Positions 2,746 through 36,469 of a DNA stretch of 64,000 nucleotides are shown here, piece by piece (position 1 is the stretch's first letter; each line of letters starts with the position of its first letter). The notes below the pieces were generated by a model that searched no databases, was not told the origin of the DNA, and worked only from the letters and a program-made list of their open reading frames with translations. A program made the translations under genes and the position numbers. The stretch comes from Candidatus Hydrogenedens sp. (GTDB lineage: Bacteria > Hydrogenedentota > Hydrogenedentia > Hydrogenedentales > Hydrogenedentaceae), in NCBI GenBank assembly GCA_049968235.1, contig JBMFRC010000007.1:32001-96000 (forward strand), given 5' to 3'.

Positions 2746-2746
2746 A

Positions 2747-5404
2747 ATGCAAAAAAGGAAAAACATCTGTTCCAATTTACAGCAATCTGCTATAATAGCA
2801 CCATGTAAAAAGGGGTTTTATGTTCCTGGTTTTCTTCTGTTTATTCCCTTACTTTTCATTGTTTGTTCACCATCCCTTGCTATTGATGATGGAACGAACT
2901 CTTTATGGAAACAGCAAGAAAATACATGGGTCTTCCAACTCAACAATAATCTCAATATGTCGTATCTCATATCGGAAAACAAAGAGAAAAATGAAATTAA
3001 ACTCACATTAGAATATTCCAACGGTATTTCTCTCTCTACGGAACAAATTTTACAAAACAAACCTGATTTTGTATCTATCGATTGTTCAAAAATAGACAAA
3101 TCTGGCATGGAATATACCTTTTCTATCGCATCCAACCATGCGTATAATGTCCAAAAAAACGAAAATAGTTTATCTATCATTTTTAAACCAGCGGGAAAAT
3201 ACCCTTCTGAAATTGAAAAGGTTGCTTCAGATATACAATCGCTCATAAATAATTCTAATATTAGAGGAACATCTATTGTTGATGAAAAAATTAACTCTTT
3301 AGACAACACAATATCTAAACTCCGGGTTGAAAATGAACTTAAATTAGCCAAACAAATCACACCTGAATTAATATTACAAAAACCCAATCAAGTTTTTAGT
3401 CAGAATATAAATGTAGCACAATCGCTTTCCGTTGGAAATGTAGGGAATCCAGAAAGAAAAATTGAAATTCGTGAAGCAAAACCTGTGGATACACCTCCCC
3501 CCCCACCCCCTCCTGCAGTAGAAAATACAGATACCCAACCGCAGGAGAATATTTCCCAAACACCTCCTGAAACACATAAAGAAGAAGCCTCTCAACAACC
3601 CCAAACTACACAGGAAACTCCCGCAGAAGAAGGAACGCAACCTCCTATGCCTCGTGAAGCAACACCGGAACAGGCAATCGATGCTACAGCAGAGATAACA
3701 AGAGAATTAAGAGAATTGCAAACTACAAATGAAGAACCAGATAAACAATTAGTTCCTATAACGCCAGAAGAAACAAAACCTGCAGGAAAAATAACCGAGG
3801 CAGAAAAACCAAAAGAGGAAATTTTATCAGAGGTAAAAATTAAACCTTCGCCTAAAGGTTTAGATACCATCACGGACTTTGAATGTGAACAGATGCCTTT
3901 AGCTAAAGTAGTTCCTTTATTAGCTTACAAAGCAGGGATAAATGTAATAGCGGGAGCAGACCTTAAAGGCAATGTTACTATGAGTTTGAAGCAAGTAACT
4001 CTTAGAAAAGCCATTGAAGCTGCTTTAAGAATGAATGGGCTTGGAATAATTCAAGAAGAAAATATCTATCGAATTGTTCCTTATGAAGAAGCGCTGTCCA
4101 GTGATAGAAGTACTATTGTTGTCCGTCTGGAAAACGCTAAAGCAACCGAAATAAGAAAAGTTCTCGAAGAAATTACAAAAGGGACAAAAGGTAGGGAATA
4201 TATTACCCTTAGTGCCAATGATACTACAAATGTAGTAATTCTCTCGGGACCAGAAGAAAACATTCAAGGTTTGGCACAAATGGCAAAGGAATTGGATATA
4301 GCCAAACCTATTATTCCTACAATAACAGCAACAATAAAACTAAACTATGCAGACCCCGACGAACTGGCAAAATCTATTCAAAAAATTCTCACACCTAAAA
4401 CAGGAAATGTATCTGCAGATGCTCGTGCAAGAAATATTATTGTAACCGATATTCCGGTGGTAGTTGAACAAGTAAAAGAAATTGTGAAAACCCTTGATAT
4501 TCCTGTTAAACAGGTCCTTATTGATACAATGGTTGTTGACGCTACATTAGGAGATGAATCACAAACAGGTATTGATTGGTTATTAAAATCGGTTCGTAAT
4601 CAGAGTTGGAGAGATTTTGTAATGTATGGACCTGAGGGTAGAAAAGTAGGTAATATTCAGCAACTTGATTTAGGTGGTGCATCCCAAACAGGTGATACGA
4701 TAGGCAACCTTACCTTCAATATTCTTACTCGTGAAATCGATTGGAAAGGTATAATTAAAGCCCAGATACAAAATCGGAATGGACATCTCATTTCCAACCC
4801 TGTTGTAGCCACTATTGAGAATAAACCTGCAACAATAACAATCTCTCAAGAAATTCCTTATATCGACCTTTCACAAACAAGTGAGGGAGGTGCTTTGACA
4901 AATACACGATTCAAACAGATAGGTACTGTTCTTGAGGTTACCCCGCGGGTTACTCATGATAATCATGTAATTATAGACATTAAGGGTAAAGAAAGCACTG
5001 TGGTCGGTGAGTTTAATGGTGTTCCCATTGAAGATATGAGACAGGTTACTAGCACACTTCATATTAATAGCGGTCAAACTATCTTTGTTGGCGGCTTAAG
5101 AAAACGCAATGATAGTGTAACCTCGCAGAAAATGCCCATACTCGGAGATATACCTGTATTAAATGTTGTCTTCAAATCTAATCAACGGAAGGCTCAAATT
5201 AATGAGTTATTAATCTTCCTTACTTGCTCTGTTTTAGAACAGGAATTACCGGAATTAACAGATGAGCAGAAAAAAGCCTATGACGACGCAAAACAGGCAC
5301 CTATGGATGCAGACCTCAGTAAATATATGGGACATGATATCCTTCACCCAAAAGATATATCTACTCCTCCCTATAAATGGAAAAGGGTCAAAAAAGACCA
5401 ATAG
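2747..5404 (+). CDS. pilQ: type IV pilus secretin PilQ
   Basis: C-terminal secretin signature ('GGLRKRNDSVTSQKMPILGDIPVLNVVFKS') and N-terminal secretin N-domains. Carries an internal Pro/Glu/Gln/Thr-rich linker (PPPPPPP...). Last gene of the pilMNOPQ operon. Confidence 0.85.
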   Translation: MQKRKNICSNLQQSAIIAPCKKGFYVPGFLLFIPLLFIVCSPSLAIDDGTNSLWKQQENTWVFQLNNNLNMSYLISENKEKNEIKLTLEYSNGISLSTEQILQNKPDFVSIDCSKIDKSGMEYTFSIASNHAYNVQKNENSLSIIFKPAGKYPSEIEKVASDIQSLINNSNIRGTSIVDEKINSLDNTISKLRVENELKLAKQITPELILQKPNQVFSQNINVAQSLSVGNVGNPERKIEIREAKPVDTPPPPPPPAVENTDTQPQENISQTPPETHKEEASQQPQTTQETPAEEGTQPPMPREATPEQAIDATAEITRELRELQTTNEEPDKQLVPITPEETKPAGKITEAEKPKEEILSEVKIKPSPKGLDTITDFECEQMPLAKVVPLLAYKAGINVIAGADLKGNVTMSLKQVTLRKAIEAALRMNGLGIIQEENIYRIVPYEEALSSDRSTIVVRLENAKATEIRKVLEEITKGTKGREYITLSANDTTNVVILSGPEENIQGLAQMAKELDIAKPIIPTITATIKLNYADPDELAKSIQKILTPKTGNVSADARARNIIVTDIPVVVEQVKEIVKTLDIPVKQVLIDTMVVDATLGDESQTGIDWLLKSVRNQSWRDFVMYGPEGRKVGNIQQLDLGGASQTGDTIGNLTFNILTREIDWKGIIKAQIQNRNGHLISNPVVATIENKPATITISQEIPYIDLSQTSEGGALTNTRFKQIGTVLEVTPRVTHDNHVIIDIKGKESTVVGEFNGVPIEDMRQVTSTLHINSGQTIFVGGLRKRNDSVTSQKMPILGDIPVLNVVFKSNQRKAQINELLIFLTCSVLEQELPELTDEQKKAYDDAKQAPMDADLSKYMGHDILHPKDISTPPYKWKRVKKDQ

Positions 5405-9888: not shown

Positions 9889-10455
9889 ATGATTATACAA
9901 AGTATAGAGCATTGCAGTTTAAAAGGAATTATTCATTTTAGACTTGGTAGATTTAATGATATACGCGGTTTCTTTACAGAACTATATCATCAGGATGAAT
10001 TAAAGAAGGTAGGATTTTCCGAAATATTTGTTCAGGATAACCTAAGCAAATCCCAGAAGGGTGTGCTCCGAGGGATGCATTACCAATTAGAGCCTTACGG
10101 CATGGGTAAATTAGTGTGCTGTGTTAGTGGTGGTATATATGATGTTGTAGTTGACCTGCGAACAGGTTCACCAACTTTTGGGAAATGGGAAGGTTTTTAT
10201 CTTACAGAAGGGGATTTAAGTCTTTTATGGGTGCCTGTAGGCTTCGCTCATGGTTTTCTGAGCCTTTACGACAATACCCATGTATTATACAAATGCACCT
10301 CTTTTTATAATATGCAGGCAGAGCGTTCTGTTTCATATTGTTGTCCCAAGATAGGTATCTACTGGCCTCAACAACCCGTTATCATCTCTGAAAAAGACAA
10401 AAATGCACCTACTCTCGAAAAAGCAGAATACAATTTCCTCTACAAAGAAGAATGA
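9889..10455 (+). CDS. rfbC: dTDP-4-dehydrorhamnose 3,5-epimerase
   Basis: Cupin core matching RmlC ('RGMHYQLEPYGMGKLVCCVSGGIYDVVVDLRTGSPTFGKWEGFYL...GFAHGF'). Length is typical of the family. Confidence 0.85.
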   Translation: MIIQSIEHCSLKGIIHFRLGRFNDIRGFFTELYHQDELKKVGFSEIFVQDNLSKSQKGVLRGMHYQLEPYGMGKLVCCVSGGIYDVVVDLRTGSPTFGKWEGFYLTEGDLSLLWVPVGFAHGFLSLYDNTHVLYKCTSFYNMQAERSVSYCCPKIGIYWPQQPVIISEKDKNAPTLEKAEYNFLYKEE

Positions 10456-10468
10456 TTCGGATACTAAA

Positions 10469-12016
10469 ATGTCAGTAATTCCCCTTTTTTTTGATAAATT
10501 ACGAAATTTATTTCTTAGTAATTATATATTTTCCTTCTACTATATAATTGTACTTGTTATTATCCTTGTCACAATTATCTCTGCGTTATTTCCTTATCAA
10601 ACACAAAATTTTTTCTATGAATACTTAGGTAAAGCATTCACTCGTTCTCAATCCTTGAAAATTATTATTCCAGACAACTGTGAAAATGACCGTATCTGCA
10701 TATCATCACTTATGGATTCATTAAAACAGAAACATAAAAAAATTCTCATTAAAGAAGTAGATTGCGAAAAAACCGCTTCTCCTATTGATATGTTAGTAAA
10801 AGGGAAAGGGGATATTATCGTCACTTCATCTATATCTGCTTTGATGAAAAAAAAGGGATTTACTGCTCTCTCAACAGCAGGTGAAAAAGGGATTTATATT
10901 ATTGCTCCTAAAAATTATAATTTTGAAGAATTCCAAATGTTAGCCGGGAAAAAAATTGGATTTTTAGGAGACATAACTACAGGAATTTATATAACAGAGC
11001 AGTTAATAAAATTTTATCATTTTGATGTTCCTCCTGAATTACATTCTCAAAAGATTTACAATGTCGAAAAATCTTTCTCCAGTGGTGAAATAGAAGCAGT
11101 TGTATGGGTTGAAGGAATTAATTCTTCCATAATTCGAGATTTTTTAAGTAAAACATGGTATCAGATTGTTCCGATTCAACAATCAAAAGACTTTTCGGAA
11201 ACAATACCGGGATTACATATAAAAAACTTAAATATATCCCCCTTCGGTTCTATCGACTTAATTTGTATTAAAAATATTCTGGCTATTTCAAATAGAGTGC
11301 CTAATTCTATTGTCCGAGAAGTGATAACTGCATGGTTTTCCTCTGAATTTATATTATATTCTCCTGAATATGAGCCCACTTGTAGCGCTTTTATTCCACC
11401 ACCATTCATTGATATTCATCCTGTTGCTTTGACTTATTTTAATAAGGACAAACCTTTAACCAGAACAGAATTGACAACTCTTGCTTTTTCTTTTATTTCT
11501 ATTCTCATCGCAATCCTATTATTAAAACAACTTTTTCATATATGGCTAAGACAAAGGAATAAGCCCTATGAAAAAGAATTAGAGAAAAGATGGGAAGAAG
11601 TAACATCCTTAAAGTATCAATGGGAAGTAGGTCTTTCAAATGATGAGATACTGATTCGATTAAAGCGAATAAAATCCATTTATAACTGGGCATTGGAAAG
11701 TTATAAACAAAATTTTATCTCCGAAAAAGAAGTTATGCTTCTCTACTTAAATATTCTTCATCAAATATTAGAATTTAACGAACAATATTTTAAATATTTA
11801 AATAAGAATAAAACTATTGATAAACTTTCGATAAACGGATTAACAACACCATCAACACAAATTCCGGATACAGAAGTCCAATCACTTCAAACTGTTCCCC
11901 GAACTTTTATTGATGAAAAAGATAAATATTTGAAGACACCTGTACCACAACAACGTTCCAGGGAACAGATACAACAAATGTTATTATTTGACCATAACCA
12001 GGATAGTGAAAAATAA
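10469..12016 (+). CDS. hypothetical membrane protein with a periplasmic solute-binding-like domain and a C-terminal coiled coil
   Basis: N-terminal TM helix, then an approx. 300-aa alpha/beta domain reminiscent of type-2 periplasmic binding proteins, a second TM helix, then a charged coiled-coil tail. I chose the start 'MSVIPLFF' because the track start at 10403 overlaps the rfbC 3' end. Confidence 0.3.
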   Translation: MSVIPLFFDKLRNLFLSNYIFSFYYIIVLVIILVTIISALFPYQTQNFFYEYLGKAFTRSQSLKIIIPDNCENDRICISSLMDSLKQKHKKILIKEVDCEKTASPIDMLVKGKGDIIVTSSISALMKKKGFTALSTAGEKGIYIIAPKNYNFEEFQMLAGKKIGFLGDITTGIYITEQLIKFYHFDVPPELHSQKIYNVEKSFSSGEIEAVVWVEGINSSIIRDFLSKTWYQIVPIQQSKDFSETIPGLHIKNLNISPFGSIDLICIKNILAISNRVPNSIVREVITAWFSSEFILYSPEYEPTCSAFIPPPFIDIHPVALTYFNKDKPLTRTELTTLAFSFISILIAILLLKQLFHIWLRQRNKPYEKELEKRWEEVTSLKYQWEVGLSNDEILIRLKRIKSIYNWALESYKQNFISEKEVMLLYLNILHQILEFNEQYFKYLNKNKTIDKLSINGLTTPSTQIPDTEVQSLQTVPRTFIDEKDKYLKTPVPQQRSREQIQQMLLFDHNQDSEK

Positions 12017-16934: not shown

Positions 16935-18905
16935 TTATTGGTTGGCTTGAACATTTTCAGATGGGATTGTAGGTGGTTTAACAATTAAAGATTCCTCAAT
17001 ATTCCCATCAATAATAATATCACCTTTAACAGTCTTTAACAGAACAGTATATTTTCCTTCTCGAATCTGGGCTTCTGCTTCTTGTTTCATTCTAGAAAAA
17101 ACACCCATTAAAGGAAGGGCAGTATCAATAATTCCCTCTTGCGTTATGGCTTTTAATTTACAATCTGTTTCAGGTGATAAAAGAATACTAATATTTCCCT
17201 TATCGGTTGAAATGTCAATATCGCCTAATATTCCATTCAGAGCCAAAAAACGAACATCTCCTTCCTGCAATCGTGCTACAACCTTCGATTGAATATCTTC
17301 TAAATTCACATTTGCCTGAATAGCCGTTATATTAATAGGTGCTTTAATATTTTTCAATGTCGCCAACCCACCACGAATCGCTATTTCTCCATTACTACCC
17401 ATATCTTCTATTCGTATATTCCCTTTTTGATTTGATACAAAATAAGGACCTTTACATGTTAATACAGAAACGACACCTGACCCTTGATTTATTCGTAGAG
17501 AACTCTCCATATTTTCACATGCAGTTTGTCCTTCTTTTGACTCTATAGAAACACCCATATGGGAAGGACAAAATATCTGAATATCCACCCTCCAATCTGA
17601 AAGATATTCGGGAAGAGCATCAAAATTTCCCGAAGTCATAATATATATTCTATTTTCTGTTCGATGAAGGTTTGCTGACACTTTCTCCAATGCTGATGTT
17701 GCTTTATCTGCAGAAGAAACCCAAACCAAACGGGTTGCTTTTACTCGTATTTTATTATCACCTGACGGGAGAATACGAACATCTCCTTTTTGATTGTTTA
17801 TTATTAAAACATCCTCGGGAGTTATTTCTTCCTCTACGGAAAAAACTTCACTAAAAGGTTTATAGTTTGATATAGTACTCTGAGGACTGGATAGAAATGT
17901 GTCGCTTCTAAAAAGAGCTACCTCCGAAAATACCGCTGTTATTTCAATTTTTTGTTTCGCATCCGGATTGGTTAAGTCTAAAGTACTCAATGAGCCTGTA
18001 CTTTTTTGAAGAATAGGCACATCCGTACTTAACTGACTTCCTAATAAACTCCCTTTCACTTCTAATTGTGATGTATCTTCAAACTTAATACTTGATTTGC
18101 CACTATCTGTATGCAAAATATACCTTCCTACTCCTAATTTTTGTAGTTTTAGTTCTCCTAAAAGATTATAAATACTAACTTCCCCTTGCAAATCATATAT
18201 CTCTGCATTTGTTCTCGAAAGATAGAAAAAACCACCATTTGTAATTTTTTTCGCTTTTAGCGGAAATTCCCCCTGTGTTCTCACTGAAACCTTGCCATTA
18301 ATATTTTCAAGTTCTATCGAACCATACTGTTCGTTAATCGTTACAGTTCCATCCACATTGGATATTCGCGTATCTCCAAAAAAATTATCAACAGAAATAT
18401 TTGCAGAACGAGGTAGTGTAATCACATAATCAATTTTTATAAATGATACACTCTCTTCGGGAAATTGATTTTCAATTAATAGTGTATTATTTTCGTTATT
18501 GATTCGTGGCTGGAAATTACTTGCTGTTTTTTCAAGAACATCTTGATTTTGCCCACCTAAGGTTAGGGTCGTCTGCACAACTACTAACGGCTCACTCCAC
18601 GATTTAATTTCAACGAGTCCAAACTCATTTTTTATCAAGACATTTATATTTTGAGATACAGAGACCTGATTTTCATAGTTCTTTGTAATTGTATATGGGA
18701 CAGATTGTTGATTGCCGAAAAGGTTTGACCTTAGTACCTCATCTGCATAAGAACCAATCTGATGAATACCTTTTATAACGGTATCAAACCCTGTTTTAAC
18801 GCCATCCAGAAGTTTGTCCTGTCCGTATGAGGAGGAGGCATACAGGTAGACACAAATAAAAAATATTAATAACTTTTTCAAATTATTGTTTCTATAATGC
18901 ATCAT
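16935..18905 (-). CDS. secreted repetitive beta-strand protein, DUF4097 / putative-adhesin-like
   Basis: Signal peptide, then repeated short beta segments rich in G/N/V/S/I ('VDNFFGDTRISNVDGTVTINEQYGSIELENINGKVSV'), as in DUF4097 head-domain repeats. No catalytic motif seen. Confidence 0.4.
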   Translation of the reverse strand: MMHYRNNNLKKLLIFFICVYLYASSSYGQDKLLDGVKTGFDTVIKGIHQIGSYADEVLRSNLFGNQQSVPYTITKNYENQVSVSQNINVLIKNEFGLVEIKSWSEPLVVVQTTLTLGGQNQDVLEKTASNFQPRINNENNTLLIENQFPEESVSFIKIDYVITLPRSANISVDNFFGDTRISNVDGTVTINEQYGSIELENINGKVSVRTQGEFPLKAKKITNGGFFYLSRTNAEIYDLQGEVSIYNLLGELKLQKLGVGRYILHTDSGKSSIKFEDTSQLEVKGSLLGSQLSTDVPILQKSTGSLSTLDLTNPDAKQKIEITAVFSEVALFRSDTFLSSPQSTISNYKPFSEVFSVEEEITPEDVLIINNQKGDVRILPSGDNKIRVKATRLVWVSSADKATSALEKVSANLHRTENRIYIMTSGNFDALPEYLSDWRVDIQIFCPSHMGVSIESKEGQTACENMESSLRINQGSGVVSVLTCKGPYFVSNQKGNIRIEDMGSNGEIAIRGGLATLKNIKAPINITAIQANVNLEDIQSKVVARLQEGDVRFLALNGILGDIDISTDKGNISILLSPETDCKLKAITQEGIIDTALPLMGVFSRMKQEAEAQIREGKYTVLLKTVKGDIIIDGNIEESLIVKPPTIPSENVQANQ

Positions 18906-27103: not shown

Positions 27104-29803
27104 CTAATATTCATAGGCTCCCATATCATAATCAGACCCATCCCCGGTAACACCTGAAATGGCGTCTCGTCCACGGAGATTTCCTTCAATATCTGTCAAT
27201 ACATTTCCCCATTCATTAGGACTTGTATCCATTCCTCTGTCGATACAAGGAGAACTACTATTCAATCTAAAATTACCGGCACTCGGGAAAATAAATAATG
27301 GGTCTGAACTTATATTTCCTTCTCCATTCTTCACCTGCTGTGTGTTACAATACATAAAAATTGCATCATTCCCGAGAGAATATGTCCCCTGTCCAGAATT
27401 TTGCCATATAATAGTATTCGCAAATGCTACATTGCTATAGTAGTTAAACACAGCCCCACCATGACTCGTCGTTGTTAAATCTGCTTGATTATCATATAAG
27501 GTACAGTTTGAAAAAACAACATTTTCACACAGGTCTATATGCACCCCACCCGTTCTTTCAATAGAAGAACTAAAATCATAAGCCTTATTTCTAAATCCTA
27601 TGGCATTTACAATTTTTGCAGAACTTTTTGTCATATAAATCATTCCTGCACTTGCTCGGGAAAAACCCCTATGGTCATTTGTAGAAACCGTATTATTTCT
27701 AAAATCTGAGTTTCTCAAATTTATATCGCTATACCATAGGTAAATAGCCCCTCCTAATGCTTTTGCGAAAGCACCATAAACCCCACCGTTAACAGTCCCA
27801 TGCCCTATCCCTTCTGCGGAACATGCATTTGAATAGAACAAACAGTTATCTATAGTTAATGAAGTATTGTAAGCAAATATTCCTCCACCAGCAGACACAA
27901 CGGTTATGTTCTGTGTAGAGGTTTGCCAAGTTCCTTGTGATGAAATTCGATTTGACTCAAAACGAGAATTCTGAATATTAATTACACTGTCTGTCACATA
28001 AATAGCAGAACCATAATTATAACTGGAATCGGATGAAACATTTTCTATTACATTCTCAATGAAATTACAGTTATATAAAGATAATTTCCCACTGATACAA
28101 CATATGCCAGCACCTACTCCGACTGATTTATTCTGGAAAAATGTACAGTTCTTGACAACCATTTTCTTTGCGGGAATATATAGACCACCTCCATCCTGAG
28201 CATCGCTGTAAACATAATCATAGCGGGCATCTCCCCCTTTTATTATGAATCCATTCAGTTCGCTATAATTTTCACCTTTAACTACATGCCAGGCTGGTTG
28301 TCCATCTCTTGCGATACTGCCATTTATAATAGTGATATTTGTTTGATAATTTCTTTGATTTAGTTCAGTTTCCGTACCTTGAAATCCCCCATAGACATTC
28401 ACCAATTCTCGAAGTATTAATGCTCCATAAGGATTTAAAGGATTTGAACGAACTTCATTATAATCTCCCGCAGAAACCCATACCTCTCCTCCACCTAACT
28501 CGAACGCTCTATCTATCCCTTCTTGCAAAGTAGGAAATGCTGTTGCCCATGATAATCCATCAGGTTCAATTTCTTCTTTTTGCCCCTTTGTCTGAGGTTT
28601 TTTTACATATATTCGTGAACCCTGGATTATTTCAATATAATCTGTTTTTTGTTTTATACTTTGTCCTGCACTGGTCGTAACGATTAATGTTACGGTATAA
28701 ATTCCCGGAGATAGATATGTGTGAGTAGGATTCCTCAAGAAACTAAAACTTCCATCCCCGAAATTCCACTGCCAGGCTGGTTCTGTTCCATTGCCCATTT
28801 TACTTTCATCACGGAACTCGATTTCATTATTGATTATGTTTTTTACAGGGGTAGCCGAAAAGTCTGCTATGGGAGGATAAGGAAAGGAACTATAAATACG
28901 TATGTAACCCGCTAAAATAGAAAGCGGATATATCAATCCATCAGGATAACTGGTAGCCATCACATTTTCTGCATAAATAGAATAAATATCATTAAATTCA
29001 GCATTTTCAGAGACTTTAAACCTCAAAATAGCATATATGCCTGATGACATTCCTGAAGTGGATGTGCCTGTTGTCGTTAATCTAAGTTTCCCTGGAATGA
29101 TTTGTCCTACTGATAGATTTCGACCTGTATTTTGAATCGCCGGTCCTATCATAAAATCCAGATATTGTATCCGATTGGAATTGAAAATCAGGTCAAACTG
29201 AACATATCCTAATATAACATTTTTAGTTTCAAGAGTAAGCGGAATATTTATTTCTGTATTAGGAACTGTATCCTTTCTATCAACAACAATACGAGCATAA
29301 TTATATGTCTCTCCTTCTCCTTCCCCTTCCAATACTCCTTCCGCAGAACCTTCTCCTTCGAAACCTTCCGGAGTCCCTTCAGGTGCCCCTTCAATAATTA
29401 CAGGACATAAAACAGGGCGAAAACCATCTTCTTTAGATGGGTCTATTTCATAACCACATACATTATAAAACTGAACCAAACGAAGAAGCTCATTTAATGT
29501 TATTCGCCAGAAATTATTCGGTTCATAATCGCTATCATGGGGTTCACATGACTGGTCCCCCGCTCCCGGTGCATATCCGTCTTCTCCAGCAGGGTCACAA
29601 TGATAGGCACGGGCATTAAAAAACTGGATTACACGTAGTAATTCGCTTAAATCAATTTTATAATCTTGATTCTTATCTGCAGTATGATAATCTCCCTTCC
29701 CAACCGAATCAACTGCATAGGAAGCATTACTTAAAATCCCGTTTAATACACACAAAAAAATGGCAGTTACAAACAGCCCTAACAATGTTATTTTACGTCT
29801 CAT
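27104..29803 (-). CDS. large secreted protein: two dockerin-like Ca-binding repeats, a Gly/Glu-rich linker, a beta-sandwich domain, a PKD domain and a right-handed parallel beta-helix domain
   Basis: Signal peptide. Tandem 'DKNQDYKIDLSELLRVIQFFN' and 'NNFWRITLNELLRLVQFYN' repeats. Acidic 'EGAPEGTPEGFEGEGSAEGVLEGEGEGE' linker. PKD signature ('WQWNFGDGSFSF...HTYLSPGIYTVTLIVT'). C-terminal approx. 450 aa of Asn/Gly/Ser-rich beta-helix repeats ('NCTFFQNKSVGVGAGICC', 'NCLFYSNACSAEG'). Confidence 0.6.
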   Translation of the reverse strand: MRRKITLLGLFVTAIFLCVLNGILSNASYAVDSVGKGDYHTADKNQDYKIDLSELLRVIQFFNARAYHCDPAGEDGYAPGAGDQSCEPHDSDYEPNNFWRITLNELLRLVQFYNVCGYEIDPSKEDGFRPVLCPVIIEGAPEGTPEGFEGEGSAEGVLEGEGEGETYNYARIVVDRKDTVPNTEINIPLTLETKNVILGYVQFDLIFNSNRIQYLDFMIGPAIQNTGRNLSVGQIIPGKLRLTTTGTSTSGMSSGIYAILRFKVSENAEFNDIYSIYAENVMATSYPDGLIYPLSILAGYIRIYSSFPYPPIADFSATPVKNIINNEIEFRDESKMGNGTEPAWQWNFGDGSFSFLRNPTHTYLSPGIYTVTLIVTTSAGQSIKQKTDYIEIIQGSRIYVKKPQTKGQKEEIEPDGLSWATAFPTLQEGIDRAFELGGGEVWVSAGDYNEVRSNPLNPYGALILRELVNVYGGFQGTETELNQRNYQTNITIINGSIARDGQPAWHVVKGENYSELNGFIIKGGDARYDYVYSDAQDGGGLYIPAKKMVVKNCTFFQNKSVGVGAGICCISGKLSLYNCNFIENVIENVSSDSSYNYGSAIYVTDSVINIQNSRFESNRISSQGTWQTSTQNITVVSAGGGIFAYNTSLTIDNCLFYSNACSAEGIGHGTVNGGVYGAFAKALGGAIYLWYSDINLRNSDFRNNTVSTNDHRGFSRASAGMIYMTKSSAKIVNAIGFRNKAYDFSSSIERTGGVHIDLCENVVFSNCTLYDNQADLTTTSHGGAVFNYYSNVAFANTIIWQNSGQGTYSLGNDAIFMYCNTQQVKNGEGNISSDPLFIFPSAGNFRLNSSSPCIDRGMDTSPNEWGNVLTDIEGNLRGRDAISGVTGDGSDYDMGAYEY

Positions 29804-29922
29804 TTAAAAATATTCCTATTCTTTCCCAGGCCTTAGCCCCGTATATTATTATGTAAAAATCCTTTTAAACTATAATATATATATAAAAATAACATTTTTC
29901 ATGTGTTTTTTGCAAGATTTTT

Positions 29923-31590
29923 TTAATGGAAGAAACTTTTTTTACAGGTTCCGAAGATATTCCCACAGGTTGTTATGCTAAGTTCCTTAATATAATTTTC
30001 AAGTTCACCCATAGTTATTGTCTGATTCTTATTCGCATCAATTTCTGAGAAAAATTCCTGTGTAACCTGAGGATATTTTTGTATGATTTCTGAAAAAGTT
30101 AGCACTCCATCTCCATCTATATTACAATAACTGAATGTGGAGAATATCTGCAAAACAAGGTTTCTCTTTTCATCTTTATCCAATGTTTTAATTTTCTGAT
30201 AACTGACATCTAGCGTAATATAAAAGGCGTGTGGAATATAGACCTGCTTTTGAGGGGGAGTTATATATCCATCTATATCAGAAAAAATAATTTTATAAAA
30301 ACCTATTGGAAATATTGCTATTTCACCGGATTTCTTCCATTCTTCCTTTCCTTGTATCTGCCATCCAGCATTTAACTTAACTACTTCATCCGGGAAAATA
30401 TTAACTACGATTCCTCCCGATTTCCAATAATTTACTTCTATAACTTTATCCTCGTTCTCACCAATTTCTACTTGAATATATTCAGAAGTTGACCAACCTA
30501 CCGGTTGAGTAAAAAACACTTTATAAATACCTGCATAAAGATTTTCTACTTTATCACCACTATTATACAGATTATCATCACCTTCAATTTGCCACTGAGC
30601 ACCACTTAAAACCGCATCATTAGGAGTTAAAATAACCGTTAATGAACTATATAATGGGGTTTCTCCCTCTCCTTCTAAGGACCCTTCCGGAATACCTTCC
30701 GGAATACCTTCCAAAATACCTTCACCTTCCGGAGGTTCTCCTTCCCCACACCCCACACATCCTCCTCCATTATCTTTCTTTGCTGGATTCAAGACACTCC
30801 CTTTATATCCCTCTACACCATACCCTTTTATTATATTCCACCGATATTCACCATAATTGCAGACCCCATCCCTATCCGCATCCCCTACCTTACTTAAATA
30901 CCTCGCCATACTTAAATCAAATTGACTCATATCCGGCATCGGAACATATATCGGTAAGTCTTCTATCATCCCTAAAAGCATATCTATTGTCGTCTTTTCT
31001 CCTACCGTTGTCAATCCCGATACTACCCCTTCAAATTTACTCCTATCCAATAGTATAAATACCACAGGCTGAACCAACTGTATTTCATCTGCATATAACC
31101 TCGTGCTTTCTACATTATAGCGATATGCCTGCTTCACACAACAATGTATCTCCTGAGTATTTTCCCTCAATACTTCATCTAATAACCACGCTTGAACTAC
31201 ATCTATCATCCCATTCGTATCCAAATCTGCCGTATCCGGTTCCTCTCCTACATACTCATACAACCACCGTAAATCTTCCTCAAAATGGCTCTCTCCCAAT
31301 ACATCATCACATCCCCCTATACACGGCTCTATATTGCATGGGTCAAACAAACCCTCTCCTTCCCCTTCTATCACTCCTTCTATACTACCTTCGATAATAA
31401 CCTCTCCTTCCATCACTCCTTCTATACTACCTTCTATTACTCCTTCTCCATTTACCATGCCCTCCGTTATCCCTTCATTACTTACAATCGTATCATTTGC
31501 GAACAATGCTTGTTGTAAAAAATACCCCCAAAAAATAAGCATAAAGAATGCAAAAACACTATTCCTATACGCTTTACTTTTCTTATCCAT
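29923..31590 (-). CDS. secreted Gly/Glu-repeat protein with TSP3-like and EF-hand/dockerin-like Ca-binding motifs (paralogous linker to the upstream beta-helix protein)
   Basis: I chose the start at the signal peptide 'MDKKSKAYRNSVFAFFMLIFWGYFLQQALFA'; the track ORF extends a further 38 codons upstream. Repeats 'EGVIEGSIEGVMEGEVIIEGSIEGVIEGEGEG' and 'GEGEPPEGEGILEGIPEGIPEGSLEGEGE'. 'DADRDGVCNYGEY' is a TSP3-like Ca-binding motif and the C-terminal 'NIDGDGVLTFSEI...DANKNQTITMGELENYIKEL' is EF-hand/dockerin-like. Two internal approx. 35-aa beta repeats ('GAQWQIEGD...' and 'AGWQIQGKE...'). Confidence 0.5.
   Translation of the reverse strand: MDKKSKAYRNSVFAFFMLIFWGYFLQQALFANDTIVSNEGITEGMVNGEGVIEGSIEGVMEGEVIIEGSIEGVIEGEGEGLFDPCNIEPCIGGCDDVLGESHFEEDLRWLYEYVGEEPDTADLDTNGMIDVVQAWLLDEVLRENTQEIHCCVKQAYRYNVESTRLYADEIQLVQPVVFILLDRSKFEGVVSGLTTVGEKTTIDMLLGMIEDLPIYVPMPDMSQFDLSMARYLSKVGDADRDGVCNYGEYRWNIIKGYGVEGYKGSVLNPAKKDNGGGCVGCGEGEPPEGEGILEGIPEGIPEGSLEGEGETPLYSSLTVILTPNDAVLSGAQWQIEGDDNLYNSGDKVENLYAGIYKVFFTQPVGWSTSEYIQVEIGENEDKVIEVNYWKSGGIVVNIFPDEVVKLNAGWQIQGKEEWKKSGEIAIFPIGFYKIIFSDIDGYITPPQKQVYIPHAFYITLDVSYQKIKTLDKDEKRNLVLQIFSTFSYCNIDGDGVLTFSEIIQKYPQVTQEFFSEIDANKNQTITMGELENYIKELSITTCGNIFGTCKKSFFH
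30683..30718. repeat. in-frame 12-bp tandem repeat (ccttccggaata, 3 copies, third diverged) encoding the EGIP repeats
   Basis: Read directly from the sequence: ccttccggaata ccttccggaata ccttccaaaata. Confidence 0.7.
31340..31460. repeat. imperfect in-frame approx. 42-bp tandem repeats encoding the (E-G-x-I/V) repeats
   Basis: 'tcactccttctatactaccttc' occurs at 31371 and again at 31413, with related flanks. This region generates the four spurious plus-strand ORFs in the track. Confidence 0.6.
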
Positions 31591-31652
31591 ATAATTCTTT
31601 CTATATCTGTTCTTAATTATATCCTTTAAAGAGGAGATTTTGTTCAATAAAT

Positions 31653-32543
31653 TTAAATTTCTTCTATAGCCATTGCGGTTGTCTTTACAAGATGTGTCTT
31701 CCAATTTAGTTTCCTGATTAACTCTTTACCTTGTTTTTTAGACTCTACAATAACAAAAAAGGTTGACCCACTACCTGTCATTCCCACATACGGAAAACCC
31801 ATTTTTTTTATTTTTAATTTTAATTCATATAATTCTGGATAAATACAAAATGCGGGTAATTCTAATCGATTGTATATAACCTTCTTCCAATTCCTTTTCC
31901 GTAATGCATATATTACTTTTCTAAACCTAATACTATATTTAATTGCAACTACATGTGAAGGTCGAATACTTAATGCGGGATGTTGATACACCTTTGCGGT
32001 AGATAGGGATAAGGGAGGATGAATTAGAACAACCCATATATCAGAAATAGGAATTAATGCGTTTATATTTTCTCCTTTGCCAGTAACTGATTGGGTTCCC
32101 CCTTTAAAAAAATAAGGGACATCAGAACCCAATCCTTTTGCAATATCCATTAAATTGCTCTCACTTAATCCTAAATTCCACAATTTATTTACTGCATATA
32201 AAGTGCCTGCGGAATTAGCAGAACCTCCACCTAACCCCGCACATATAGGGATATGCTTTTGAATATGGACATGTATCCCTTTTTCTATTCCTGTAATATC
32301 TTTTACTTTTTCTACTGTCTTATAAACAATATTTCGGTCATCCGTAGGCAATAATGTATCATTTGTTGTAACACAAACACCCCGGGGCATTTCAAAAAAA
32401 GTAAGGGTATCCGATAAAGTTACCGTTTGAAAAATAGATTCAATTTTATGGAAACCATCGGGATATTTACCTATCACATCAAGATAAAGATTTATCTTCG
32501 CATTTGTCCTTACTTTCATTAATGCAGGCATAAACAAATCCAC
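31653..32543 (-). CDS. ispE: 4-diphosphocytidyl-2-C-methyl-D-erythritol kinase
   Basis: 'KINLYLDVIGKYPDGFHKIESIFQTVTLSDTL' is the GHMP-kinase IspE N-terminus, and 'PICAGLGGGSANSAGTL' is the GHMP ATP-binding motif. Confidence 0.9.
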   Translation of the reverse strand: MDLFMPALMKVRTNAKINLYLDVIGKYPDGFHKIESIFQTVTLSDTLTFFEMPRGVCVTTNDTLLPTDDRNIVYKTVEKVKDITGIEKGIHVHIQKHIPICAGLGGGSANSAGTLYAVNKLWNLGLSESNLMDIAKGLGSDVPYFFKGGTQSVTGKGENINALIPISDIWVVLIHPPLSLSTAKVYQHPALSIRPSHVVAIKYSIRFRKVIYALRKRNWKKVIYNRLELPAFCIYPELYELKLKIKKMGFPYVGMTGSGSTFFVIVESKKQGKELIRKLNWKTHLVKTTAMAIEEI

Positions 32544-34285: not shown

Positions 34286-36469
34286 TTAATCTACAATTAA
34301 TTCAACTCTTTCGGGCGTAGATTTAATTGAAATACTAACTATATTACTGGATAGTTTTACACTTTTAAGGGACTTCCCATCAATTAAAACCCTGTTTATT
34401 TTATACGATTCAGGTTTATAAATATATAAAGTTGCGGGAGATGTTATTGTCTCTTTAAATAAAACTTCTAATTTCTTTTCCTCATTTATCCATCGAGTAG
34501 AATTAATAAACTCCATCCCACACTGGTCTGCTGTTTTTACTCCAACTACGGATGGAATATCTGTCTTAACTATTAAACCAATATATTTTTCCTCCGGGTT
34601 ACCTTGAATAGTTTCACTATCCTCTATAAATTTCTCTCTTGCATAATCCCAGAAGAGGGCTTCATTATTTATGCTTTTCAATAATGACGCAGAGAAAGGT
34701 TCTACATTTTTTATAATATAAATAAGGGAATTATTAAAACTATCTTGAGTTGCATAACTCCGATAGTACCACACTGACGGCTGTTTTTTATTTGTATCAA
34801 AAGGTGTAAACATTACCTTTGTTTTAATGGTTAATTGAAGCATTTTCTTTGCAACATCTGAATTATTAAAATCACCTAACCACACTGCGGGTCCTGGGAA
34901 TGACTGAAGGAAAGTATTTGTCAAAAAGTTTTGAGTATTTACTAACTGATTGTTTATTTTTACAGGACTAATCCCTGTATTAAAACTTGATAAAGTTCCG
35001 CTAATTGCACAAAATGCAGTTAATTCTTGTTCCGAATTTATGATTACCTCAGAGGACTTTGGATATACTGGAATATTGCTGAAATAGTTGGAGAGTTCCT
35101 TTAACCCTTGAAACATTGCCTCTGTATAAGTTGCATGAATCTGTTCTAAAACTGTATCCGGGACAGAAATATCACAAACGATAAAGTCGGGATTCCATGA
35201 CAAAATTTTCTCCCACCGTTTCTTTGCTACTTCTAATCCATTTGGTGTATTAAATCTAACAAAAGCATACTCATCGGACACAGGTACTGAAAATTCACTT
35301 CCCACTGGAACTACCCATGGATTTAAAGACAAACCTACTTTCAATGCACTATGATTTTTCAATTGCTCAATTATAGGTTTCATATCTTTTGATAAGGTTT
35401 TTGTATTTCCCTTCAAAGACCCTAAAGGTTGTTCCCAGCCATTTGGAATGAGTATAGCATTTATACCGACACTGCTTGAAAAACTGGCAATTTTTGAGAG
35501 ATTCCCCAAGTTTACCTTCCCCGGGTCAACAGAAATCCAACCCCGAACAGGCTTTTCTATTACCATCTTAGAATAGGTCGGAGAAAGAGAGGAAAGAGCC
35601 CATATAAAGGTAGTATGAAGTTTATAAGCATCATTACTAAAGGAAACAAGTACTGGGTCACTTTCGATGGTTTCTCCAGCTGCAATTGTCAAAGAAGGTA
35701 AATATTCACATTCAACTGCCCCTGTCCAGTTATCACCGTCCCCTTCCGTAAATATCTTAGAATGAGATTTTCCTTGAGGACAGACTGCAAAAACAATTTT
35801 CTGACCTTTATTCGTAGTAAGTTCTAATATTTGGGATTCTTCTTCTGAGGTATAAGCCCAGTATCCGTTAATATTACCTACAGGTCTCCGTATTTTTTCA
35901 TTAGGAAGTCGTGTAATTAATCCTGCTACTGGAGGAAACACAAAAGGTTTAATCTTAGCAATAGTGATAGGGCTTGTTCCATTATTGGTTATAAGTGTAC
36001 TAAAAAGTACAAAACTACACTGCTTAAAACTGGTAACACGCTGTTGGATTAAAATATCATTTTTTATAGGGAATATAGCGGTAAAATGCGTAGCAGGACC
36101 AAAAACACTATCCACTGCTACTCGGTCCGTAAATGCATTACCCAATGACTCTGCGGAAATTTCTTCACCCGTTTTTAATTGTATCGAAGGACCATAACCT
36201 TCGATAATAGTCATCTCCGAATAATTATCGGGTACGGTATAAAAAATATGCCAATCTCCATTCATCTCATCAAAATCAATCCCCATATTTTCCCATGAAA
36301 AAGTATATCTATGGCGTAAAACCCAGGGAGATGAACGAGGTTGAGGCACTTCATCTTCAACTTTTTTCTTCTTTTTTGCCGCTGACCAGCCATCAATAGA
36401 AAGCAAAGCAATAAAAGTTAACAGGAGGAGAAAAATAACATAACGATTGGTTTTCTTTTTTACAAACAT
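34286..36469 (-). CDS. secreted hypothetical protein, possible TIM-barrel glycoside hydrolase
   Basis: Signal peptide, a beta-rich N-terminal region, and a central alpha/beta region ('ILIPNGWEQPLGS...VGLSLNPWVV') suggestive of a GH-like barrel. No confident family match by eye. Confidence 0.25.
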   Translation of the reverse strand: MFVKKKTNRYVIFLLLLTFIALLSIDGWSAAKKKKKVEDEVPQPRSSPWVLRHRYTFSWENMGIDFDEMNGDWHIFYTVPDNYSEMTIIEGYGPSIQLKTGEEISAESLGNAFTDRVAVDSVFGPATHFTAIFPIKNDILIQQRVTSFKQCSFVLFSTLITNNGTSPITIAKIKPFVFPPVAGLITRLPNEKIRRPVGNINGYWAYTSEEESQILELTTNKGQKIVFAVCPQGKSHSKIFTEGDGDNWTGAVECEYLPSLTIAAGETIESDPVLVSFSNDAYKLHTTFIWALSSLSPTYSKMVIEKPVRGWISVDPGKVNLGNLSKIASFSSSVGINAILIPNGWEQPLGSLKGNTKTLSKDMKPIIEQLKNHSALKVGLSLNPWVVPVGSEFSVPVSDEYAFVRFNTPNGLEVAKKRWEKILSWNPDFIVCDISVPDTVLEQIHATYTEAMFQGLKELSNYFSNIPVYPKSSEVIINSEQELTAFCAISGTLSSFNTGISPVKINNQLVNTQNFLTNTFLQSFPGPAVWLGDFNNSDVAKKMLQLTIKTKVMFTPFDTNKKQPSVWYYRSYATQDSFNNSLIYIIKNVEPFSASLLKSINNEALFWDYAREKFIEDSETIQGNPEEKYIGLIVKTDIPSVVGVKTADQCGMEFINSTRWINEEKKLEVLFKETITSPATLYIYKPESYKINRVLIDGKSLKSVKLSSNIVSISIKSTPERVELIVD

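What the first reader, a model, noticed from the sequence alone, without database searches (positions are those of the whole stretch)
27104..31590. Adjacent pair of secreted proteins sharing Gly/Glu-rich 'EGxxEG' repeat linkers plus dockerin/EF-hand-like Ca-binding motifs, a PKD domain and a beta-helix domain: a candidate cell-surface complex
Seen directly. The 899-aa protein has a signal peptide, two dockerin-like repeats (D-x-N-x-D-x-x-I-D-L-S-E-L-L-R-V-I-Q-F-F-N), an acidic EG-repeat linker, an approx. 140-aa beta-sandwich region (possibly cohesin/CARDB-like; this is inference), a clear PKD domain and a long Asn/Gly-rich parallel beta-helix domain. The 555-aa neighbour, transcribed immediately upstream on the same strand, has a signal peptide, much longer EG(I/V)xEG repeat arrays, a thrombospondin-type-3-like 'DADRDGVCNYGEY' motif, two internal approx. 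35-aa beta repeats and a C-terminal EF-hand/dockerin-like motif. The shared, unusual EG-repeat linker suggests common ancestry or co-function. Dockerin-like modules in both suggest Ca-dependent protein-protein docking. The beta-helix plus PKD architecture is typical of polysaccharide-active or adhesive surface proteins, and the window contains four or more secreted glycoside hydrolases. The pair lies directly upstream of, and co-directional with, ispE-ubiB.
Basis: partly seen in the sequence, partly recalled or inferred. Interest (0 to 1): 0.55.

Follow-up and report, generated by a model that had tools for sequence, protein, structure and literature searches.

The report
Cohesin protein with new dockerin-like tag
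Two neighbouring exported proteins of an uncultured Hydrogenedens bacterium are real and modular; one combines a true cohesin with an uncatalogued calcium-loop "tag" domain that dozens of exported proteins per genome carry in this phylum, which hints at a protein-docking system, but the two neighbours are not shown to be partners.

Summary
Both genes exist exactly as described (minus strand; A 27104-29803, 899 aa; B 29923-31590, 555 aa). They lie downstream of ubiB-ispE, not upstream. The organism is Candidatus Hydrogenedens.

**Protein A:** signal peptide, "Y" module, Glu/Gly (EG) linker, cohesin, PKD, right-handed beta-helix, choice-of-anchor-Q end. The cohesin is confirmed by an ortholog profile (PDB cohesins E 2e-12).

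**The Y module**
- About 95 aa, two repeats of loop, helix and beta-hairpin. Absent from Pfam and NCBIfam.
- Found in at least 595 protein clusters, and at 21 or more loci in one MAG.
- Sits at either terminus of very diverse cargo, usually next to an EG linker.

**Protein B:** EG linker, rare Cys-rich helical "X" domain, EG linker, two CnaB/transthyretin-like beta-sandwiches, ordinary EF-hand pair. It has no dockerin-like module.

**The pair:** EG linkers are lineage-wide, so they do not show shared ancestry. Adjacency holds only where the whole block is collinear.

**Best reading:** A works like a one-cohesin adaptor scaffoldin tethered through Y. What Y binds is unresolved. B is not a demonstrated partner.

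The parts
29714..29803 (-). Protein A signal peptide (aa 1-30)
   Evidence: Read from the sequence: MRRK, hydrophobic core, ASYA|V. Conserved in position in orthologs. No predictor was run.
29399..29695 (-). Protein A 'Y' module (aa 37-135): two repeats of Ca-type loop, helix (ELLRVIQFFN / ELLRLVQFYN) and beta-hairpin ending EDGY/EDGF, with two invariant Cys
29306..29392 (-). Protein A Glu/Gly-rich EG linker (about aa 138-166)
   Evidence: Regex scan. Length varies among orthologs. An EG linker lies next to Y in 47 of 85 Y-bearing ORFs.
28886..29305 (-). Protein A cohesin domain (about aa 167-306)
   Evidence: The ortholog profile hits PDB cohesins (5nrk_A E 2.4e-12; 4uyp, 6kg8, 2vn5, 1g1k). 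Pfam Cohesin matches 11 of 15 ortholog segments, best 1.7e-12. The window copy alone is below detection.
28631..28873 (-). Protein A PKD domain (aa 311-391)
   Evidence: Pfam PKD_4 E 1.8e-16. PDB ColH PKD domains E 2.4e-14.
27275..28621 (-). Protein A Asn/Gly-rich region, probable right-handed parallel beta-helix (aa 395-843)
   Evidence: Pfam Beta_helix in 5 of 16 orthologs (best 1.7e-13) and DUF1565 in 2 of 16. Weak profile hits to the mannuronan C5-epimerase beta-helix cap, E 1.3e-3. No structure was predicted for this part.
27107..27274 (-). Protein A C-terminal choice-of-anchor Q domain (aa 844-899)
   Evidence: NCBIfam NF041518: 24.6 bits in the window copy (cutoff 25), and 16 of 16 orthologs match, best 7.5e-8.
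31498..31590 (-). Protein B signal peptide (aa 1-31)
   Evidence: Read from the sequence. The start is supported by ortholog N-termini.
31351..31485 (-). Protein B first EG linker (aa 36-80)
   Evidence: Regex scan and tandem repeats of period 12 and 42 nt. pLDDT 24-30 in the model.
30745..31350 (-). Protein B 'X' domain (aa 81-282): Cys-rich, all-helical, with two EF-type loops (DLDTNGMIDVVQ; DADRDGVCNYGE)
   Evidence: Invariant Cys and Asp columns. Helical in the model, pLDDT 44-83 by 10-residue block. Only 178 cluster representatives among 1.84 billion. No Pfam match.
30655..30744 (-). Protein B second EG linker (aa 283-312)
30193..30654 (-). Protein B two tandem beta-sandwich domains (aa 313-389 and 390-466), CnaB/transthyretin-like
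   Evidence: pLDDT about 75-89. Foldseek hits: B. anthracis TIE protein E 1e-7, SdrD B domains, pilins, carboxypeptidase N transthyretin-like domain. The two domains are 29% identical, E 2e-7.
29971..30192 (-). Protein B C-terminal EF-hand pair (aa 467-540)
   Evidence: Pfam EF-hand_1 28.6 bits, above the 25.4 cutoff. Two canonical 12-residue loops (NIDGDGVLTFSE; DANKNQTITMGE). Helix-loop-helix twice in the model.
29926..29970 (-). Protein B conserved Cys-Gly tail (aa 541-555), unexplained
   Evidence: C542 and G543 are invariant in 9 orthologs. pLDDT below 50.

Best explanation
These are two Sec-exported modular proteins of a Candidatus Hydrogenedens genome.

**Protein A works like a one-cohesin adaptor scaffoldin.**
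- Its N-terminal Y module is a portable, calcium-loop tethering module. In this phylum Y is placed at either end of dozens of unrelated exported proteins, behind a disordered acidic EG tether.
- Its single cohesin offers a docking site for a second protein.
- The PKD domain acts as a spacer.
- The beta-helix with its choice-of-anchor-Q end is the passenger: an adhesin or a polysaccharide-acting domain.

**What Y binds is unresolved.** I rate a cohesin-type receptor at about 0.4, which would make Y a very divergent dockerin. I rate a cell-envelope component at about 0.3, which would make Y an SLH-like anchor.

**Protein B belongs to the same modular calcium-binding exported proteome but is not shown to be A's partner.** Its architecture is X domain, two CnaB-like stalk domains and an EF-hand pair.

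**Shown versus inferred.**
- Shown: the domain architecture, cohesin identity, the size and distribution of the Y family, its position at either terminus, its cargo diversity and its association with the EG linker.
- Inferred: calcium binding, tethering, the adaptor role and the cellular location.
For: **Cohesin.** The ortholog profile hits PDB cohesins at E 2.4e-12, and Pfam Cohesin matches 11 of 15 ortholog segments.

**Y is an independent, mobile module.**
- At least 595 protein clusters carry it.
One MAG accounts for 21 of the 79 loci kept.
- Of 85 Y-bearing ORFs, 54 have Y at the C-terminus, 25 at the N-terminus and 6 elsewhere.
- 54 non-A Y proteins match 61 Pfam families, none of them in more than 4 proteins.
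- An EG linker lies within 25 aa of Y in 47 of 85 Y-bearing ORFs, against 7 of 492 other ORFs that contain an EG linker at all.

**Y looks like a dockerin in fold.**
- The AlphaFold2 model has pLDDT 85.
- The first loop is a canonical 12-residue calcium loop. Both helices carry the same invariant E/R/Q/N stripe.

**Cohesin and Y occur together in two different orders.**
- Y-EG-cohesin in A orthologs.
- Cohesin-Y in small proteins of 259-325 aa.
- 34 of 35 cohesin hits in all session data also carry Y, though the sample is biased.
- A cohesin protein with a C-terminal membrane helix is encoded two genes from a cohesin-Y gene in L055.

**Choice-of-anchor domains.** Choice-of-anchor Q and R domains recur on Y proteins, which fits Y acting as the anchor.

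**Known parallel.** The ScaC adaptor of R. flavefaciens has one cohesin plus one dockerin (PMC2930009).
Against: - No binding was tested, and no co-folding was possible.
- Canonical Pfam Dockerin_1 proteins are encoded right beside the cohesin genes in L055 and occur in other Y-bearing genomes. The cohesins may therefore have ordinary partners, and Y may do something else.
- The window's own cohesin and beta-helix fall below Pfam detection. They are identified through orthologs.
- A membrane-helix-anchored cohesin would face the periplasm in a bacterium with two membranes, so surface location is not established.
- All loci were collected through Y or through A, so the co-occurrence counts are biased.
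Confidence: 0.45

Rival explanations
1. Y is a new class of dockerin whose receptor is the A-type cohesin. Y-tagged proteins dock onto cohesin-bearing proteins: protein A, the small cohesin-Y proteins and the membrane-anchored cohesins. Because A carries both modules, it can form head-to-tail chains or a hierarchical scaffold. This would be a phylum-wide, non-cellulosomal cohesin-dockerin system. It is the stronger version of the best explanation.
For: - The module is a duplicated loop-helix with the same conserved polar stripe on both helices, as in dual-binding dockerins.
- It works at either terminus.
- 34 of 35 cohesins found also carry Y.
- The L055 cluster holds cohesin-Y together with cohesin-membrane-helix proteins.
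- Y modules are 53-64% identical across cargo and genomes, as expected for one shared receptor.
Against: - hhalign probability is 11%, and Pfam Dockerin_1 matches only 1 of 16 Y segments.
- Foldseek gives no significant hit.
- Canonical dockerins sit next to the same cohesins in L055.
- Y outnumbers cohesins about 8 to 1 in the sample.
- In known systems a scaffoldin's own dockerin does not bind its own cohesins.
Confidence: 0.25
2. There is no docking system. A is simply a secreted beta-helix adhesin or polysaccharide-acting enzyme. Its cohesin-fold and PKD domains serve as inert spacers, and Y is a calcium-stabilised structural cap or folding module. B is an unrelated calcium-binding structural protein that happens to lie next door.
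For: - Cohesin-like and PKD folds are common spacers in secreted proteins.
- The window copy of the cohesin is too diverged for Pfam.
- There is no partner evidence of any kind.
- The neighbourhood is housekeeping, not a dedicated locus.
Against: - A structural cap would not be expected at either terminus of 60 or more unrelated domain families, separated from the cargo by a long disordered linker.
- It would also not be expected to stay about 60% identical across them.
- Cohesin is almost never seen without Y in the sample.
Confidence: 0.2
3. One reading: A and B form a specific cell-surface complex through dockerin-like calcium motifs present in both, and the shared EG linkers reflect common ancestry or co-function.
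For: - The two genes are adjacent, co-directional and have no terminator-like site between them.
- Adjacency is conserved down to 59% identity.
- In other lineages B's X domain and A's Y module are fused in one polypeptide: 34 of 150 X proteins.
Against: - B has neither Y nor a cohesin. Its C-terminus is an ordinary EF-hand pair.
- EG linkers are lineage-wide.
- Where the pair is conserved, the whole block is collinear. More distant A homologs lack a B neighbour.
- The X+Y fusions show that X is one more cargo of Y, not its receptor.
Confidence: 0.08

Closest known systems
Adaptor scaffoldins of cellulosomes, e.g. ScaC of Ruminococcus flavefaciens (one cohesin plus one dockerin; PMC2930009)
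   Same: One cohesin and one terminal duplicated calcium-loop module in the same secreted polypeptide. The small cohesin-Y proteins (259-325 aa) in related genomes have the same layout.
   Different: - Y is not a sequence member of the dockerin family.
- Y is N-terminal in A.
- A also carries a large PKD plus beta-helix passenger.
- The cargo on Y proteins is not CAZyme-centred.
- The host has two membranes.
- No binding has been shown.
Type I dockerin (Pfam PF00404; PDB 1ohz_B, 2vn5_B, 2mte)
   Same: - A tandem duplication of calcium-type loop plus helix.
- A canonical DxNxDxxIDxxE first loop.
- Terminal position behind a linker.
- Many copies per genome.
   Different: - About 95 aa rather than about 60-70 aa.
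- Each repeat adds a beta-hairpin ending in EDG[YF].
- There are two invariant Cys.
- The second loop is 2 residues longer and non-canonical.
- HMM and profile-profile tests fail.
Non-cellulosomal cohesin/dockerin modules (Peer et al. 2009, listed in the references of PMC2930009; Clostridium perfringens NagJ cohesin, PDB 2ozn, 2o4e, 2w1n)
   Same: A cohesin in an organism and protein with no cellulosome context. NagJ cohesins are among the profile hits.
   Different: In those systems the partner is a recognisable dockerin. Here the abundant partner candidate is a new module. Canonical dockerins exist only at low copy in related genomes.
SLH-type anchoring of scaffoldins and surface proteins (from my own knowledge of Firmicutes systems)
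   Same: A repeated module of about 100 aa at either terminus of many unrelated exported proteins, including cohesin carriers, is what an envelope anchor looks like.
   Different: There is no sequence or fold relation to SLH. The envelope ligand is unknown.
Choice-of-anchor proteins (NCBIfam NF041518 choice_anch_Q, NF041539 choice_anch_R)
   Same: A ends in a choice-of-anchor Q domain, and other Y proteins carry Q or R. By definition these passenger domains occur with alternative anchoring signals.
   Different: The known anchors are short C-terminal sorting signals. Y is a folded module of about 95 aa that can also be N-terminal.

Membership tests
Cohesin (Pfam PF00963) | Significant match to the cohesin profile or to solved cohesins over the ~140-aa domain | tested here: met
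   The ortholog profile (A3) hits 5nrk_A at E 2.4e-12 and about 10 other cohesins. Pfam Cohesin matches 11 of 15 ortholog segments. The window sequence alone gives no Pfam hit at E<=1.
Cohesin (Pfam PF00963) | Binds a dockerin | not testable with these tools
   No co-folding or binding assay was available.
Dockerin type I (Pfam PF00404) | Match to the Dockerin_1 HMM or to a dockerin profile | tested here: not met
   - Pfam Dockerin_1 matches 1 of 16 Y segments at E 0.089.
- No dockerin appears in the PDB profile search at E<=10.
- hhalign against 3 verified dockerins gives probability 11% over 20 columns.
Dockerin type I (Pfam PF00404) | Two tandem segments, each a 12-residue calcium loop followed by a helix | tested here: inconclusive
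   Repeat 1 is canonical (DKNQDYKIDLSE). Repeat 2 keeps the helix but has a 14-residue loop without the canonical position 5. The model shows loop-helix twice, plus extra hairpins.
Dockerin type I (Pfam PF00404) | Dockerin fold | tested here: inconclusive
EF-hand pair (Pfam PF00036 / PF13499), protein B C-terminus | Two helix-loop-helix units with 12-residue loops, above the Pfam threshold | tested here: met
   EF-hand_1 scores 28.6 bits, above 25.4. The loops are NIDGDGVLTFSE and DANKNQTITMGE. The model shows helix-loop-helix twice.
PKD domain (PF18911 / PF00801) | Match above the Pfam threshold | tested here: met
   60.4 bits, above 27. 16 of 16 orthologs match.
Right-handed parallel beta-helix (PF13229; pectate-lyase-like) | Profile match or beta-helix fold | tested here: inconclusive
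   Beta_helix matches 5 of 16 orthologs but not the window copy. There are weak hits to the epimerase cap. No structure was predicted, and no catalytic residues could be assessed.
Thrombospondin type 3 repeat (Pfam TSP_3) | Match to the TSP_3 profile; tandem Asp-rich repeats | tested here: not met
   No TSP_3 hit at E<=1. The motif is a single EF-type loop inside the helical X domain.
Choice-of-anchor Q (NCBIfam NF041518) | Match at the curated cutoff | tested here: inconclusive
   The window copy scores 24.6 bits against a cutoff of 25. All 16 orthologs match, best 7.5e-8.
CnaB / transthyretin-like stalk domains (protein B 313-466) | Fold match to solved CnaB or transthyretin-like domains | tested here: met
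   Foldseek 6fwv E 1.1e-7, SdrD B domains 2.8e-7, pilins, all at probability 1.0. pLDDT about 75-89. There is no Pfam sequence match.
C-terminal sorting signals (T9SS CTD, PEP-CTERM and similar) | Obligatory C-terminal position | tested here: not met
   25 of 85 Y modules are N-terminal, directly after the signal peptide, including the one in protein A.

The most novel reading that the evidence does not exclude
Hydrogenedentota use a phylum-wide, non-cellulosomal protein-docking system built on a new class of dockerin (Y).
- Dozens of exported proteins per genome carry Y at either end, behind an acidic EG tether.
- Y plugs into cohesins carried by adaptor proteins (protein A and the small cohesin-Y proteins) and by membrane-anchored cohesin proteins.
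- Together these would form a hierarchical, calcium-dependent display scaffold in a bacterium with two membranes.
Probability: 0.25. Interest if true: 0.7.

Novelty: new variant of a known kind. Interest (0 to 1): 0.5.

Why it matters
- **Cohesin-dockerin biology.** These pairs are best known from cellulosomes of Gram-positive anaerobes and are widely used as protein-assembly tools. A cohesin next to an abundant, uncatalogued, dockerin-shaped module in an uncultured phylum with two membranes would widen the known range of such systems. If binding is confirmed, it would also supply a new orthogonal docking pair.
- **Annotation.** Whatever Y binds, it marks a large set of exported proteins: at least 595 clusters, and 21 or more loci in one genome. 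These are now annotated as hypothetical. A profile for Y would organise much of the Hydrogenedentota secretome.
- **Assembly.** The EG-linker repeats may also explain why so many of these genes are recorded as partial at contig ends.

Tried and rejected
**Searches and look-ups that led nowhere**
- The PDB sequence search with the Y profile found nothing relevant.
- Foldseek of the Y model against PDB gave no significant hit.
- hhalign of Y against three verified type I dockerins aligned only the calcium loop, probability 11%.
I used the Y alignment instead.
- The look-up of P0164, a second Y protein from the same MAG as the window, is not on record.
- Peer et al. 2009 (PMC3035643) is not held.
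- The promoter/terminator scan gave no more sites than shuffles, so operon structure stays open.
- Literature searches found no mention of cohesin or dockerin in Hydrogenedentota papers.
- The X domain gave no fold or Pfam lead. Its model confidence is low.

**Readings I rejected**
- TSP type 3 motif: no Pfam hit.
- EG linker as evidence of shared ancestry: the linker is lineage-wide.
- Y as a C-terminal secretion or sorting signal: 25 of 85 Y modules are N-terminal.
- The locus as a polysaccharide-utilisation cluster: the neighbours are ubiB, ispE, a response regulator, gyrAB, uvrA and nadE.
- B as the receptor for Y through X: X and Y are frequently fused, and X appears to be cargo.
Full report
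**Observation**

- The B frame stays open up to a TTG at 31704, but ortholog N-termini support the ATG at 31590.
- Both proteins begin with sequences that read as Sec signal peptides. This is read directly from the sequence; no predictor was available.
- Glu/Gly 'EG' arrays occur in these two genes and nowhere else in the 64 kb window.
- In B the arrays are 12-nt and 42-nt tandem DNA repeats. They account for the local GC-skew dip.

**Organism and context**

- B is 100% identical to an NCBI protein of a Candidatus Hydrogenedens MAG. A's homologs are also from Hydrogenedens or Hydrogenedentes.
- The rest of the window is ordinary chromosome: gyrA/gyrB, uvrA, NAD synthase, a secretin, one GH2 and one weak GH-like protein. 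It is not a dedicated polysaccharide locus.

**Protein A**

Pfam on the window copy finds only PKD (311-391, E 1.8e-16). NCBIfam finds a borderline choice-of-anchor Q domain at 844-899. Sixteen homologs at 34-90% identity align end to end.
- **Cohesin.** A profile of region 160-306 hits solved cohesins (5nrk_A E 2.4e-12, and 4uyp, 6kg8, 2vn5, 1g1k). Pfam Cohesin matches 11 of 15 ortholog segments.
- **Beta-helix.** The C-terminal half matches Pfam Beta_helix in 5 of 16 orthologs and choice_anch_Q in 16 of 16. There are weak hits to the cap of mannuronan C5-epimerase beta-helices. A right-handed beta-helix is likely, but I did not model it.

**The N-terminal double repeat ('Y', aa 37-135)**

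- *Conservation.* It has 31 invariant columns, including H-x-[AS]-D, E/R/Q/N on each helix, EDG[YF] after each hairpin, and two Cys. The same residues are invariant in 54 unrelated Y proteins.
- *Loops.* Repeat 1 has a canonical 12-residue calcium loop. Repeat 2 has a longer, non-canonical loop.
- *Model.* AlphaFold2 gives pLDDT 85 and pTM 0.74. Each repeat is loop, helix, beta-hairpin.
- *Sequence tests.* The PDB profile search finds no dockerin. Pfam gives weak EF-hand hits and Dockerin_1 in 1 of 16 segments at E 0.089. hhalign against three verified type I dockerins gives probability 11%.
- *Conclusion.* Y is dockerin-shaped but is not a demonstrable member of the dockerin family. Neither Pfam nor NCBIfam has a model for it.

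**Y is a large, mobile family**

- The profile finds at least 595 protein clusters, nearly all of them Hydrogenedentes. Most are fragments with Y about 30 residues from the C-terminus.
- One of these clusters (ACP5UA_03355) comes from the same MAG as the window.
Of the 79 loci kept, 21 come from one MAG, 12 from a second and 9 from a third.
- Some of these MAGs are labelled Nitrospirales or Desulfobacterales by their submitters. I did not verify the labels.
- Of 85 Y-bearing ORFs in these loci, 54 carry Y at the C-terminus, 25 at the N-terminus directly after a signal peptide, and 6 elsewhere. That rules out an obligate C-terminal sorting signal.
- Cargo is very diverse: 61 Pfam families in 54 proteins, none in more than 4. 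Examples are LRR, PASTA, GLUG, beta-helix, Ig, CHRD, P-domain, FGE-sulfatase, M23 and EF-hand arrays.
- An EG linker lies within 25 aa of Y in 47 of 85 Y-bearing ORFs. Only 7 of 492 other ORFs contain an EG linker at all. The EG array is the lineage's standard tether, not a mark shared specifically by A and B.
- Y modules are 53-64% identical across cargo and genomes. C-terminal and N-terminal copies form separate subclusters.

**Cohesin and Y**

- Cohesin travels with Y in two arrangements: Y-EG-cohesin in A orthologs, and cohesin-Y in small proteins of 259-325 aa (L038, L039, L055, L060). Three of the four small proteins pass Pfam's Cohesin threshold.
- In all session data, 34 of 35 cohesin hits also carry Y. 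The data were collected through Y or through A, so this count is biased.
- Locus L055 encodes the following genes in a row:
  1. two small proteins with canonical Pfam Dockerin_1 domains (33.7 and 27.1 bits);
  2. a cohesin-Y protein;
  3. a cohesin-like protein with a C-terminal membrane helix;
  4. a cohesin with a C-terminal membrane helix.
- A local HMM also finds canonical dockerins in L021, L062, L013 and P0364.
- This cuts both ways. It shows a genuine cohesin-dockerin toolkit in Y-bearing genomes. It also means that the cohesins may have ordinary dockerin partners, with Y acting as a separate anchor.

**Protein B**

The model has mean pLDDT 62. From N to C it shows:
- disordered EG linkers;
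- an all-helical Cys-rich domain X (81-282) with two EF-type loops.
- two beta-sandwich domains (313-389 and 390-466) that are 29% identical to each other. They match CnaB/transthyretin-like stalk domains of surface proteins: Foldseek 6fwv E 1e-7, SdrD and pilins;
- a canonical EF-hand pair (Pfam 28.6 bits);
- a conserved Cys-Gly tail that I cannot explain.

X is rare: 178 cluster representatives among 1.84 billion. It has no Pfam match. Of 150 X proteins, 34 also carry Y, almost always at the C-terminus, and none carries an A-type cohesin. X therefore behaves as one more cargo of Y. The B lineage itself has no Y and no cohesin.

**Synteny**

- In a genome whose A homolog is 59% identical, the whole block is collinear with the window: 737-aa protein, ubiB, ispE, B, A, convergent response regulator, ceramidase-like gene.
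- A homologs at 38-44% identity sit in other neighbourhoods without B.
- Adjacency is therefore inherited collinearity, not evidence of coupling.
- No terminator-like site separates ispE, B and A, but the scan is no better than shuffles.

**Mechanism**

- *Best-supported reading.* A is tethered through Y, presents one cohesin as a docking site, and carries a PKD-spaced beta-helix passenger. This is the layout of a monovalent adaptor scaffoldin such as ScaC (PMC2930009).
- *What Y binds.* I rate a cohesin-type receptor somewhat above an envelope component, for two reasons. A duplicated loop-helix module with matching polar stripes on both helices is the dockerin hallmark. Cohesins also co-occur with Y.
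- *Limits.* The sequence tests fail, and canonical dockerins lie beside the same cohesins. Calcium binding, location (surface or periplasm) and all interactions are inferred.
- *Protein B.* B is most simply another member of the same modular calcium-binding exported proteome.

**Novelty**

- The pair as such is ordinary for this lineage.
- The cohesin is a new member of a known family.
- Y is an uncatalogued, abundant domain family with a dockerin-like shape.
- A cohesin/Y/dockerin toolkit in Hydrogenedentota is not mentioned in the papers I could search.
- I file the finding as a new variant of a known kind.

Noticed in passing
L055:3623-8310 (MAG CAZZMK01, labelled 'uncultured Nitrospirales'): A compact gene row: two small secreted proteins with canonical Pfam Dockerin_1 domains (169 aa and 428 aa), a cohesin-Y protein (259 aa), a 442-aa protein with a cohesin-like N-terminus and a C-terminal membrane helix, and a cohesin with a C-terminal membrane helix (280-aa ORF). 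It looks like a minimal cohesin-dockerin cluster that includes Y.
   Followed up: partly
window 30745-31350 (protein B aa 81-282), and P0132, P0135, P0137, P0265-P0405: A rare Cys-rich helical domain 'X' with two EF-type loops: 178 cluster representatives in 1.84 billion proteins and no Pfam model. It is often repeated 2-7 times per protein, and in 34 of 150 proteins it is fused to a C-terminal Y module. In P0121, an ortholog of B, X is duplicated.
   Followed up: partly
window 29926-29970 (protein B aa 541-555): A conserved C-terminal tail, [KT]-C-G-x(3-5)-C, with C542 and G543 invariant in 9 orthologs. It follows the EF-hand pair and has no known counterpart.
   Followed up: no
window 34286-36469 (-), 727 aa: A signal-peptide protein with no Pfam hit lies directly upstream of ubiB. 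A 737-aa gene with no Pfam hit sits at the same position in L001, so it appears to be part of the collinear block.
   Followed up: no
window 30001-32000: The strongest GC-skew dip in the window (-0.42). It is caused by the GAA/GGN-rich EG-linker coding repeats on the minus strand. Many Y-bearing proteins in databases are recorded as partial at contig ends, and these repeats may be what breaks the assemblies.
   Followed up: partly
L021:2195-2731 and L062 (about 3623-4080): Small secreted proteins with a canonical dockerin (local HMM E 5e-10 and 5e-5). In L021 the gene lies directly upstream of an X-X-Y protein in a Hydrogenedentota MAG.
   Followed up: no
window 16935-18905 (-) 656 aa; window 10403-12016 (+) 537 aa: Two large ORFs with no Pfam match at E<=1e-4.
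   Followed up: no
L013 (MAG labelled Desulfobacterales), ORF about 2665-4098: A protein with two cohesin-like segments flanking a canonical dockerin, on the same contig as a Y module. Several Y-bearing MAGs carry non-Hydrogenedentota labels (Nitrospirales, Desulfobacterales, delta proteobacterium), so the taxonomic range of Y needs checking.
   Followed up: no
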